This document shows positions 56,193 through 57,960 of a stretch of DNA of 64,000 bases, one piece after another; position 1 is the stretch's first letter, and each line of letters starts with the position of its first letter. The stretch lies in the IMG/VR virus record IMGVR_UViG_3300031555_004297, one strand, 5' to 3'. The notes under the pieces were generated by a model. That model made no database searches. It worked only from the letters and a program-made list of their open reading frames with translations, and was not told the DNA's origin. The translations under genes and the position numbers were made by a program. The DNA is from a virus (taxonomy: Duplodnaviria; Caudoviricetes).

Positions 56193-57080
56193 ATGGCAAG
56201 AACAGCAAAAACTAATGAAGAAGTAAAATCCGCAGTAATTAACAGCGGTAACTGGAGTTCCACAACACCCCAGGTCCCCATGCATTATATGCATGTCGAG
56301 ATTGAGTGGCTTGAAAAAGCACTCGGCACTTCTCCCAACAATGCAAATATCTTGGGAGACTACATAGCCTCTAAGGCGCCTGATGCATTGACCAAAGAGC
56401 AGGAGATCGCTGCTATTGGTCAAGATGAAGTTATGGATAAGCAGGTATGCATTTATCCGAAGGGTCAATTCAGGTATGACCCTAAGACTGAAAGATATCT
56501 TGATGATCTTACTGAAGATCACAAGAAGATCAAAGGCGAAGAGGTTCGTGAGAACGTTCCCTTCTATTACAATTATCAGATTCGCGGATTCTTTAAGGAT
56601 TCCTGTGGTCTGCTGACTAAGGCTGATGATGTAGACGAGAATGGCAAGAAGCTTGGTGCTACAGAGTCTGCTAAGGTTAAAGCTTATAAGAAGGTCATCG
56701 ATGGATGCATCTTCGTATTCCCTCGTAGAATTGCTATTGATATTCCTGAGTTCTATGTAGATGATGATGGAATTACCGTAGTTCCTTCTAAAAATGAAGA
56801 TGGATCTTTGAAGATTATTCAGAGACCTATTCGTACAAGCGGCCCGAGTGGTGAGCGCACTGCAATTGCAGCATCTGAAATGATTCCTGCAGGAAGCCGT
56901 ATTAAGTTCACTATCGGTATGACTTCTCTGAAGTTCAAGCCTGCTGTAGTTGAGTGGCTTAACTATGCAGTAGTTCATGGTATCTCTGGTTGGAGAAACT
57001 CCGGCCTCGGTATCTGCCGTTGGAGGGAGATTAAGGAAGATTATACTCCTTATACCACCGAGGAAAATTCTGCTGAATAA
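56193..57080 (+). CDS. stand-alone Cas7/Csm3-like RAMP protein
   Basis: RAMP motifs in order: first strand HVEIEWLEKALG; PFYYNYQIRGFFKD (P.I.GSS.KG.lR); thumb RPIRT; EMIPAGSRIKFTI (E.v..G..f.f.i); C-terminal glycine loop GISGWRNSGLG. Confidence 0.8.
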   Translation: MARTAKTNEEVKSAVINSGNWSSTTPQVPMHYMHVEIEWLEKALGTSPNNANILGDYIASKAPDALTKEQEIAAIGQDEVMDKQVCIYPKGQFRYDPKTERYLDDLTEDHKKIKGEEVRENVPFYYNYQIRGFFKDSCGLLTKADDVDENGKKLGATESAKVKAYKKVIDGCIFVFPRRIAIDIPEFYVDDDGITVVPSKNEDGSLKIIQRPIRTSGPSGERTAIAASEMIPAGSRIKFTIGMTSLKFKPAVVEWLNYAVVHGISGWRNSGLGICRWREIKEDYTPYTTEENSAE

Positions 57081-57084
57081 TCTT

Positions 57085-57960
57085 ATACCGTCCGATTTAG
57101 AAAAGATATTATTTACCGTAGGACGGTATTGGAAATGACGATGTCGGAGCTAAATAGTTTTGATAAGGAGAGGCGTCAACCCGAGCGTAGTGAATATGAT
57201 ACGGAAAAGCGTGGAGCGCAAGGGCATCAAGTAGATTCGGAAAGGTGAGGAGTCTAACGGAATGCATTCGACGCGATATGGAATTGATAGTACTCGTATT
57301 GAGGTGGAACGGCGATGAGTACATGCAAGCAGGTTTGATAAGGAACTGCACAGTCGCGAACTAAACGGAGCCAAGAAGATGTCGGAACGGCGCGGAACGG
57401 TAAAGCTGTGAGCTGGAATGGCATATAAAGGAATCTAGAATACATGACTGGCAATGGGACAGCACAGAACAGACTACATGTGAAGGGCAAAGGAGATGAG
57501 TTTACAAGAATCGGCCAAATCTGACCGGACACGGAATGGAGAGGATGATATTGCAATTCAAATCCGCCGACCAGATGTGAAAAGGAAGATAATGGAAAAG
57601 TTCGATGTGATTCTAAGGGAAACCATTCTATCTGACAAGGAATAGAAGTAGACTGAACAACTTTGAGCGGACCGTATGGGACAAGGAAAGGACTAGATAA
57701 TAGAAGAACTTAATTCATAAGAAGTGGAAATGAGAAAGAAAGACACCGACCGAGAAGGAACGGGACCGATCTGACGATCTCAGAACCGAAGTGGAATGGA
57801 GTGAATTCGAAATTAGTCAAAGCGAAAAGGAATTGAATGGAATGACTTGGATTTGCCTTGAGAAGGAATGGAAAAGAGTCAAGAGAATTGCTTAACGCTG
57901 AATTGAATTCTTTTCATAACAAGGAAAGTACAGGGAACGGAGATTAATCCGTTCCCTGTA
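57085..57960 (+). ncRNA. pentamer-phased repeat array, candidate guide-RNA precursor
   Basis: 5' stem ATACCGTCC / GGACGGTAT (57085-57129); about 20 GGA-initiated units of 5n+1 nt from 57131; terminal 13-bp hairpin. Confidence 0.75.
57929..57960. terminator. terminator between the convergent array and the 57970 gene
   Basis: TACAGGGAACGGA / TCCGTTCCCTGTA. Confidence 0.8.

What the first reader, a model, noticed from the sequence alone, without database searches (positions are those of the whole stretch)
56193..57960. Stand-alone Cas7-like RAMP gene plus a pentamer-coded RNA array: candidate non-CRISPR RNA-guided system
Seen in sequence: the 295-aa protein carries the RAMP/Cas7 motifs in order, ending in the glycine loop GISGWRNSGLG. 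Four bases after its stop begins an ~880-nt ORF-poor, purine-rich tract with a 5' stem (57085-57129), about 20 variable units and a terminator. No cas1, cas2, cas3, cas5, cas6 or repeat-spacer array is recognisable in the window. Established: Cas7-family RAMPs polymerise along guide RNA with a fixed nucleotide step (6 nt in class 1 CRISPR). Inference: this protein polymerises on the array transcript at one subunit per 5 nt, reads NGA as scaffold and presents the variable bases for gapped target recognition, for example against competing phages or host genes. From memory and unverified, this resembles recently reported viral RAMP + GGY-NN (VIPR) arrays; the scaffold here is NGA, so it would be a distinct variant.
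Basis: partly seen in the sequence, partly recalled or inferred. Interest (0 to 1): 0.97.

Follow-up and report, generated by a model that had tools for sequence, protein, structure and literature searches.

The report
Phage VIPR-type RAMP with pentamer guide array
A large gut phage carries a lone Cas7-like protein gene followed by an ~800-base array of 5-base repeats, which matches the virus-borne RNA-guided "VIPR" systems first described in 2026, so it is real and interesting but a new example of a known kind.

Summary
ORF 56193-57080 encodes a 295-aa protein with no sequence-family hit. Its AlphaFold model matches only CRISPR Cas7-type RAMPs (Csm3 Z 11.7). The downstream tract 57127-57913 is the only strongly 5-nt-periodic stretch in the 64 kb, about 7 SD above background.

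A cyclic HMM gives the pentamer G-A-(a)-N-N. The tract parses into 19 abutting units, 18 of them 5n+1 nt long (mostly 36 or 41 nt). Each of those 18 ends in a hexamer, which shifts the register by +1.

Most homologous loci have the same kind of periodic, purine-rich tract just downstream of the gene: 68 of 74 viral loci and 46 of 67 genomic loci. A metagenome relative with a 99%-identical protein has the same array, but whole units and single pentamers are gained, lost or replaced.

This matches the published VIPR systems (bioRxiv, 2026): a stand-alone viral RAMP plus vrRNAs of 3 fixed and 2 variable bases. Those papers also report non-canonical motifs and tail-less "staggered" arrays.

No targets were found. 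Expression and RNA binding are untested. Sequence homology to the characterised Vipr is weak (hhalign P 1.7e-4).

The parts
56193..57080 (+). vipr-like gene: 295-aa stand-alone Cas7-type RAMP (P0001). G-loop at residues 263-273. W267/R268 align with W178/R179 of the characterised SUSP1 Vipr.
   Evidence: ORF and translation. AF2 model pLDDT 78, pTM 0.73. Foldseek pdb top hits are all Cas7-family, E 1e-6. VIA-align Z 11.7 to Csm3 9g9a_D. Purifying selection against L091 (2 aa changes; 47 of 52 nt differences at codon position 3). Family of 846+ proteins and 1073 50%-identity clusters.
57087..57129 (+). Conserved hairpin between the stop codon and the array. Possibly a leader, processing or attenuation element.
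   Evidence: Fold -16.2 kcal/mol, z -3.0. Stem arms are identical in L091, with one loop substitution.
57127..57913 (+). Guide-RNA-type array: 19 abutting units of G-A-(a)-N-N pentamers. 18 units are 5n+1 nt (modal 36 or 41 nt, i.e. 7-8 repeats), and each of these ends in a hexamer, 17 of them of the form G-N-N-N-N-G (+1 register shift).
   Evidence: Periodicity. HMM logo and likelihood against shuffles. Parse gives 133 pentamers, 20 hexamers and 1 tetramer. 70% of repeats start with G and 54% with GA, against 10.6% GA expected. No excess RNA structure (z -0.57). Unit-level turnover against L091.
57928..57961 (.). Strong bidirectional terminator-like hairpin that closes the array and the convergent gene 57970-58692 (-).
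   Evidence: 14 bp; -30.1 kcal/mol, z -7.0 on +; -27.5, z -5.9 on -. Conserved in L091.

Best explanation
This is a phage-encoded VIPR-type RNA-guided system.

Shown here:
- The gene encodes a stand-alone Cas7-like RAMP under purifying selection.
- An ~790-nt non-coding, purine-rich array lies directly downstream on the same strand.
- The array consists of 5-nt repeats with a fixed G-A core and variable remaining bases.
- This gene-plus-array pairing is conserved across a large, mostly viral or proviral protein family.

Inferred from the published VIPR mechanism:
- The array is transcribed with, or just after, the gene, past a conserved hairpin, and ends at the terminator at 57928-57961.
- One RAMP protomer binds each pentamer. 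It sequesters the G-A(-a) bases using the G-loop (W267/R268) and the thumb hairpin (residues ~206-231), and presents the variable bases.
- The extra nucleotide at the end of every 5n+1 unit breaks the 5-nt register. The transcript therefore yields about 19 short guides of 7-8 protomers each, either cut apart or acting as separate filaments.
- Each guide recognises a gapped sequence in double-stranded DNA of a competing mobile element. It silences that element rather than cutting it, because no nuclease or helicase partner is detectable next to the gene.

The guide repertoire changes by gain, loss and replacement of whole units between near-identical phages.
For: - Fold. BFVD's best hit is a 38%-identical gut-virus protein already named 'Cas system-associated RAMP superfamily protein'.
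- Array reality and grammar.
- Hexamer against tetramer asymmetry: 20:1 (binomial p 2e-5) in the window, 1360:274 in 145 homologous arrays.
- Conserved association: period-5 G power is about 4x background for 0-400 nt downstream of the gene, averaged over 74 viral loci. 68/74 viral and 46/67 genomic loci have z>3.
- The family-wide motif is G-[C/A]-a-N-N.
- Full-length colinear hhalign alignment to the SUSP1 Vipr clade, P 1.7e-4, including the G-x-G-x-W-R-...-G-R-F G-loop.
- Published mechanism and array types.
- Viral context: RNAP beta, topoisomerase II, ligase, PhiKZ-type vertex protein.
- Unit turnover with a 99%-identical protein.
- Unstructured array RNA.
Against: - There is no expression or binding data.
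- No target was found under the 1-nt-skip rule. None in the window itself. Five exact gapped patterns gave 0 hits across 7 scans of viral and genome collections. These exact-match searches are insensitive.
- The motif is degenerate: only 54% of repeats start with GA, and which bases are presented is not settled.
- Substitutions against L091 are not clearly concentrated at the variable positions (7.6-14% per phase).
- Sequence homology to experimentally characterised Vipr is weak (HMM-to-sequence scores at most 12 bits; hhalign probability 23-49%).
- No conserved accessory (vap) gene. The upstream ORF has only 4 homologues and no fold match.
- There is no per-guide 3' tail such as type II vrRNAs have.
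Confidence: 0.78

Rival explanations
1. The same RAMP-RNA filament forms, but with a different code or target from published type II VIPR. For example, three presented bases per repeat, a different skip length, or RNA rather than dsDNA as target. It might be used to regulate host or phage transcripts in a jumbo-phage infection.
For: Only two positions (G, A) are strongly fixed, and three positions carry little information. Guides are short, 7-8 repeats against the published 9-16. There is no tail. The closest structural neighbours are RNA-targeting Csm3, Cmr4 and type VII Cas7. No 1-nt-skip targets were found.
Against: Alternative registers and skip lengths gave no target excess either. The fold neighbours share no catalytic context here. 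Published non-canonical VIPR arrays are assumed to work in the same way.
Confidence: 0.12
2. The RAMP is a counter-defence protein: a Cas7 mimic or RNA-processing enzyme that interferes with host CRISPR complexes. The periodic tract would then be a decoy or sponge RNA rather than a set of guides.
For: It is a stand-alone viral Cas7-like protein with no cas partners. Phages are known to carry CRISPR-derived parts (general knowledge).
Against: The tract's variable positions and unit turnover between near-identical phages suit guides rather than a fixed decoy. The family occurs in very diverse hosts with the same array grammar. The related VIPR systems have been shown experimentally to be guide-directed.
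Confidence: 0.05
3. The tract acts at the DNA level, for example as a phased protein-binding or bending array or a recombination hot spot, and its position beside the RAMP gene is incidental. Alternatively, the periodicity is a compositional accident.
For: A 5-nt period is half a helical turn. The tract lies between convergent genes.
Against: The strand-specific purine bias and the fixed position downstream of the gene on the same strand hold in 114 of 141 independent loci. The likelihood gain over shuffles is about 75 nats. The 5n+1 grammar is shared across distant relatives.
Confidence: 0.03

Closest known systems
VIPR (Viral Interference Programmable Repeat) type II systems of Escherichia phage SUSP1 and a Pseudomonas fulva prophage (bioRxiv 10.64898/2026.04.26.720920; structures in 10.64898/2026.04.26.720927)
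   Same: Both have a stand-alone phage RAMP with RRM core, G-loop and thumb. Both have no cas genes and no CRISPR array. Both have an adjacent same-strand non-coding array of 5-nt repeats with fixed and variable positions. The G-loop W-R pair that stacks on the fixed bases is conserved (SUSP1 W178/R179 = W267/R268 here).
   Different: The fixed core is G-A(-a), not G-G-Y. SUSP1 D177, which reads G1, aligns with G266 here. Guides are 7-8 repeats without a 3' tail or pseudoknot and abut each other with a +1 shift. SUSP1 instead has ~100-nt vrRNAs of 9-16 repeats plus a tail (I located its arrays at KT454805 27619-27966 and 29170-29231). The protein is 295 aa against 195 aa, and only remotely similar in sequence. 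No vap1-like gene lies beside it.
Published non-canonical and 'staggered' VIPR arrays (fig. S17/S18 and methods of 10.64898/2026.04.26.720920; 21 non-canonical 5-nt clusters in 10.64898/2026.10.21.760802)
   Same: Both have a degenerate consensus (NNNNG, NNNGG, GAC/NN and others), Vipr-like folds next to the arrays, and tail-less arrays in which the end of one vrRNA is the start of the next with a 1-nt overlap. That is what a 5n+1 unit with a shared G looks like.
   Different: I could not see the figures or supplementary tables, so I cannot say whether this protein clade or the G-A / G-[C/A] motif is among them. The papers say the staggered architecture was not confirmed by RNA sequencing. The instance here is long (19 units) and sits in a jumbo-type phage.
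Class 1 CRISPR backbone subunits (Csm3, Cmr4, type VII Cas7, Csf2)
   Same: Same fold (Z 9-11.7 over about 160-180 residues). Presumed one-protomer-per-fixed-step polymerisation on a guide RNA with thumb-induced base flipping.
   Different: The step is 5 nt rather than 6 nt. There is no repeat-spacer array, no Cas5, Cas6, Cas10 or Cas11 partners, and no adaptation genes. The sequence is not recognised by Pfam RAMP, NCBIfam or PADLOC models.

Membership tests
VIPR system | Stand-alone RAMP protein with RRM core, glycine-rich loop and thumb hairpin | tested here: met
   AF2 model pLDDT 78. All top PDB matches are Cas7-type RAMPs (Foldseek E 1e-6; VIA-align Z 11.7, rmsd 4.0, 165 aligned). The G-loop G-I-S-G-W-R-N-S-G-L-G is invariant or nearly so in the family.
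VIPR system | Protein homologous to published Vipr proteins (SUSP1 ALH47069 / X1U2U4 lineage) | tested here: inconclusive
   Profile-profile: local G-loop match P 9e-4, probability 23%. With larger alignments: full-length colinear alignment over 190 columns, P 1.7e-4, probability 49%. HMM-to-sequence scores are at most 12 bits. No solved Vipr structure is in the PDB copy.
VIPR system | No CRISPR array and no cas operon at the locus | tested here: met
   The only tandem repeat in 64 kb has a 16-nt period. The ten ORFs between 48713 and 59835 have no Cas-related Pfam or PHROG hit, and the protein and its three upstream neighbours have no PADLOC or NCBIfam hit. ORFs further away were not all screened.
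VIPR system | Adjacent non-coding tandem 5-nt repeats alternating fixed and variable positions | tested here: met
   Period-5 signal about 7 SD above the window background. HMM logo G .71, A .78, a .46, N, N. 133 pentamers. The same holds in 114 of 141 homologous loci.
VIPR system | Canonical GGY fixed trinucleotide | tested here: not met
   The second position is A (78%) and the third is weakly A. The family-wide motif is G-[C/A]-a. The papers accept 'a related consensus' for some types, so this excludes the canonical type II form only.
VIPR system | Each vrRNA ends in a conserved structured 3' tail (type II) | tested here: not met
   No repeated tail element was found. Units abut directly. 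The array RNA is no more structured than shuffles. This is consistent with the published tail-less staggered arrays.
VIPR system | Accessory vap gene next to vipr | tested here: inconclusive
   Three co-oriented upstream ORFs have no family hit. The nearest one has only 4 homologues and no fold match above Z 4.7. It is absent from the other homologous loci. Upstream genes in the short-form loci are heterogeneous.
VIPR system | Encoded by a virus or provirus | tested here: met
   The window encodes a phage RNAP beta subunit, topoisomerase II, ligase, DNA polymerase and a PhiKZ-type vertex protein. Homologues are common in IMG/VR contigs.
VIPR system | Array transcribed and RNA bound by the protein | not testable with these tools
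   No expression data are available.
VIPR system | Variable bases match natural DNA targets under the 1-nt-skip rule | tested here: inconclusive
   No excess over shuffled controls in the window or in 1.9 Mb of homologous loci. 0 exact hits for 5 long units in viral and genome collections.
Class 1 CRISPR-Cas | Repeat-spacer array and multi-subunit cas operon | tested here: not met

The most novel reading that the evidence does not exclude
This clade may be a mechanistically distinct VIPR branch with three features. (1) Guide length is set by a built-in +1 register slip (one extra G every 7-8 pentamers) instead of a structured tail or ribozyme. (2) The protein anchors on only two bases (G-A, or G-C in relatives) and may present three. 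(3) The pairing rule, and possibly the target type, then differs from the published 2-base, 1-nt-skip code. On this reading a jumbo-type phage deploys about 19 such mini-guides, whose repertoire turns over by whole-unit exchange.
Probability: 0.2. Interest if true: 0.7.

Novelty: new member of a known kind. Interest (0 to 1): 0.45.

Why it matters
VIPR systems are a newly described class of programmable, CRISPR-independent RNA-guided DNA binders, and have been proposed as the ancestors of CRISPR RAMPs.

This locus adds a clear natural example of the least-studied architecture: tail-less, staggered 5n+1 units with a G-A core. It sits in a large gut phage. A near-identical relative shows how the guide repertoire changes, by whole-unit and single-pentamer indels.

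The locus offers a compact test bed of gene plus array, about 1.8 kb. It could show how filament length is set without a tail, and which bases of a degenerate pentamer are read. It does not open a new category.

Tried and rejected
1. Sequence-family searches of the protein gave nothing useful: Pfam, PHROGs (one hit at E 0.079), PDB sequences, PADLOC and NCBIfam.
Only L091 was obtained, from the single metagenome scan.
3. No whole genome is held for the window, and megablast against phage records found nothing.
4. Rfam found no ribozyme or known RNA in 54300-58300.
5. Target prediction led nowhere:
   - Eight register/skip models against the window showed no excess over shuffled units.
   - The gapped k-mer test of 687 units from homologous arrays against 1.9 Mb of their flanks showed excess only at period 5, i.e. 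unmasked array self-similarity.
   - Five exact 1-nt-skip patterns in 7 scans (5 of viral contigs, 2 of genome contigs) gave 0 hits.
6. Phase-specific substitution analysis against L091 showed no clear contrast.
7. A search for protein residues that track GA-type against GC-type arrays gave no clean determinant and is confounded by phylogeny. The best lead is position 47, W in GC-type and S/A in GA-type, next to the residue aligned to SUSP1 H17.
8. The upstream ORF 55588-56172 as a vap candidate: few homologues and no fold match.
9. Coding potential of the tract was rejected because of non-triplet indels against L091.
10. The ESM Atlas gave only unnamed viral clusters.
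Full report
**What is there**

The ORF at 56193-57080 (+) is open and has a good ribosome-binding site. 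It encodes 295 aa (P0001), including the stretch G-I-S-G-W-R-N-S-G-L-G near the C-terminus. Its stop codon is followed by a 9-10-bp hairpin at 57087-57129 (z -3.0). After that comes a purine-rich tract (A 36%, G 29%) that runs to a strong 14-bp hairpin at 57928-57961 (z -7.0). That hairpin also closes the convergent gene 57970-58692.

**Is the periodicity real?**

Base-identity autocorrelation in 57081-57965 peaks at lags 5, 10 and 15. Across the whole 64 kb, the 800-nt windows covering the tract have the highest lag-5 excess: 0.137 against a mean of -0.011 and sd 0.021.

The Fourier phase drifts steadily, and the apparent period is 5.1-5.2 nt. A 5-state cyclic HMM with equal penalties for a 1-nt insertion or deletion was trained from random starts. 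It converges on G (0.71), A (0.78), a (0.46), N, N, with log-likelihood -956 against -1027 to -1039 for shuffles.

The parse gives 133 pentamers, 20 hexamers and one tetramer. That 20:1 asymmetry has binomial p 2e-5 and explains the phase drift. The tract is a chain of 19 units. Eighteen of them have lengths 41, 36, 41, 36, 26, 36, 41, 31, 36, 36, 41, 51, 36, 46, 41, 56, 36 and 36 nt, all of the form 5n+1. Each of these ends in a hexamer, 17 of them of the form G-N-N-N-N-G, and the next unit usually starts GAA or GAG.

70% of repeats start with G and 54% with GA, against 10.6% GA expected from composition. The array RNA is no more structured than shuffles (z -0.57). Rfam finds nothing in it.

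**The protein**

No Pfam, NCBIfam, PADLOC or PDB-sequence match exists. The family is nevertheless large: 846 hits in the 90%-identity collection and 1073 clusters at 50% identity.

An AlphaFold model built on 37 homologues has pLDDT 78 and pTM 0.73. Foldseek against the PDB returns only Cas7-type RAMPs at the top: type VII Cas7, Csm3, Cmr4 and Csf2, with E down to 1e-6. The Foldseek-independent VIA-align search ranks Csm3 first (9g9a_D, Z 11.7, rmsd 4.0, 165 residues), and the next thirty hits are all CRISPR RAMPs.

In BFVD the best match is a 38%-identical gut-virus protein that someone already labelled 'Cas system-associated RAMP superfamily protein'. The fold claim is therefore confirmed.

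**Context**

The window encodes a phage RNA polymerase beta subunit, topoisomerase II, NAD ligase, DNA polymerase, SbcC, UvsX, DnaB and a PhiKZ-type vertex protein. It is a large, jumbo-type phage genome. No whole genome is held for it.

There is no CRISPR-like array in the 64 kb. Three unknown ORFs (54505-56172) are translationally coupled upstream of the RAMP gene. The nearest has only four homologues and no fold match above Z 4.7. None of the three recurs in the other homologous loci, so I do not count them as part of the system.

**Relatives**

Eighty viral-contig loci and 78 genome loci encode homologues at 30-41% identity. Most are about 200-230 aa and lie in gut Firmicutes, Actinobacteria and Bacteroidota MAGs or prophages. 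A few lie in Planctomycetota, and one in an archaeal MAG.

Averaged over 74 viral loci, period-5 power of G rises about four-fold exactly at the gene's stop and stays high for about 400 nt. Locus by locus, 68 of 74 viral loci and 46 of 67 genomic loci have a downstream lag-5 excess more than 3 SD above their own background, with about 62% purines on the coding strand.

The pooled logo is G (0.90), C/A (0.58/0.30), a, N, N. The same grammar holds: 1360 hexamers against 274 tetramers, a modal unit of six repeats, and junctions such as GCAAA|G|GCAnn. About 22 of 147 arrays are A-rich rather than C-rich at the second position, including the archaeal-MAG locus L155. The GA core is therefore a sub-variant of a family-wide G-[C/A] core and is not unique to this phage.

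**A near-identical relative**

Metagenome contig JAEIGA010231932.1 (L091) encodes the same protein with 2 amino-acid changes. 47 of the 52 nucleotide differences in the gene are at third codon positions, which shows strong purifying selection.

L091's array has the same 5n+1 units. The hairpin and first unit are almost identical. Several units are conserved at about 90%. The region of units 2-4 and unit 6 is replaced. One 41-nt unit is present only in L091, and a single 5-nt repeat is inserted in another unit. The repertoire therefore turns over by whole units and whole repeats.

Point substitutions in the conserved units run at about 10%, against 16% at third codon positions, and are not clearly phase-specific. 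The upstream ORF is only 63% identical between the two contigs, so the gene-plus-array module is mosaic with respect to its neighbours.

**Comparison with what is known**

VIPR systems were reported in 2026. They consist of a phage-borne stand-alone RAMP (Vipr) that polymerises one protomer per 5-nt repeat on vrRNAs of alternating GGY/NN. The protein sequesters GGY and presents NN, which pairs with dsDNA while skipping every third base. The outcome is silencing of competing phages and satellites.

Seven types are described. Some have a 'related consensus' (NNNGG, YNNNG, NNNNG), ribozyme-interspersed arrays, or 'staggered arrays' in which neighbouring vrRNAs overlap by 1 nt. A later preprint lists 21 clusters with other fixed trinucleotides, such as GAC, CAC, WGT and TGH.

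I located the SUSP1 locus at KT454805 27.6-29.2 kb and took its 195-aa Vipr. Profile-profile comparison with the present family gives a colinear full-length alignment at P 1.7e-4. The clearest shared element is the G-loop G-x-G-x-W-R-...-G-R-F. SUSP1 W178/R179, which stack on the fixed bases, correspond to the invariant W267/R268 here. D177, which reads the first G, corresponds to G266. HMM-to-sequence searches do not connect the two clades, so homology is probable but not proven by sequence alone.

The 5n+1 units with a shared junction G are what the published 'staggered, 1-nt overlapping' arrays would look like. I could not see those figures or tables.

**Mechanism I commit to (about 0.78)**

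This is a VIPR-type system. The array is transcribed from the same strand. Protomers bind each pentamer through the G-A core. The +1 slip at each junction ends one filament and starts the next, which yields about 19 guides of 7-8 repeats. The guides direct sequence-specific binding, and probably silencing, of competitor DNA.

The steps shown here are the fold, the array grammar, the conserved association, selection on the gene, and unit turnover. Transcription, binding, processing, the pairing rule and the targets are inferred.

**Targets**

I found none. There was no excess over shuffled controls in the window for eight register and skip models. There was none in 1.9 Mb of homologous loci apart from array self-similarity. 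Exact gapped patterns from the longest units, three from this array and two from relatives, gave no hits in the viral or genome collections. These searches tolerate no mismatch, so the result is uninformative rather than negative.

**Verdict**

The system belongs to a kind published months earlier, including its unusual array architecture in outline. I rate it a new member of a known kind, of moderate interest.

An earlier first-stage note on this stretch (e1-5647516) proposed the same 5n+1 grammar, which I derived independently with the HMM.

Noticed in passing
window 54505-56172: Three translationally coupled unknown ORFs (198, 165 and 194 aa) lie directly upstream of the RAMP gene. None has a family hit. 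The last has only 4 homologues, a confident model (pLDDT 78) and no fold match above Z 4.7. Between the window and L091 it is only 63% identical while the RAMP is 99% identical, so a recombination boundary lies near 55900.
   Followed up: partly
window 23517-23657: Near-perfect tandem repeat of 16 nt, 8.8 copies (TTTTCCGTAGTATGGT). It is the only TRF hit in the window and looks iteron-like.
   Followed up: no
window 1849-44371: Replication and transcription module of a large phage: DNA polymerase (1849-3369), SbcC-like (5457-8159), NAD ligase (13086-15380), RNAP beta subunit (15483-17726), UvsX-like (17814-19064), topoisomerase II subunits (26826-29198, 32983-35601) and DnaB-like helicase (42602-44371). 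There are no tRNAs in the window.
   Followed up: partly
window 57970-58692 (-): Convergent 240-aa ORF with a long acidic, low-complexity C-terminal half and a lysine-rich tail. It shares the terminator hairpin with the array and is only about 52% identical in L091.
   Followed up: no
L098 and L100 (JAGCAN010000001.1, 22-29 kb and 70-77 kb): Two separate copies of the RAMP homologue lie on one 86-kb Oscillospiraceae MAG contig.
   Followed up: no
P0001 residue 47 (alignment of 147 homologues): Arrays with a G-C core mostly go with Trp at this position (73 of 125). Arrays with a G-A core mostly have Ser or Ala. The position is next to the residue aligned with SUSP1 Vipr H17, which reads the first fixed base. 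The signal is weak and confounded by phylogeny.
   Followed up: partly
L022, L092 and about 25 other homologous loci: Some homologues lack a periodic tract in the first 300 nt downstream and have a coding gene there instead. Their arrays, if any, must lie elsewhere.
   Followed up: no
L125:2563-2973, L054:2081-2845: In short-form prophage loci the RAMP gene sits in the early or replication region, next to SSB or Rha/ORF6C antirepressor-type genes. No accessory gene is conserved across them.
   Followed up: partly
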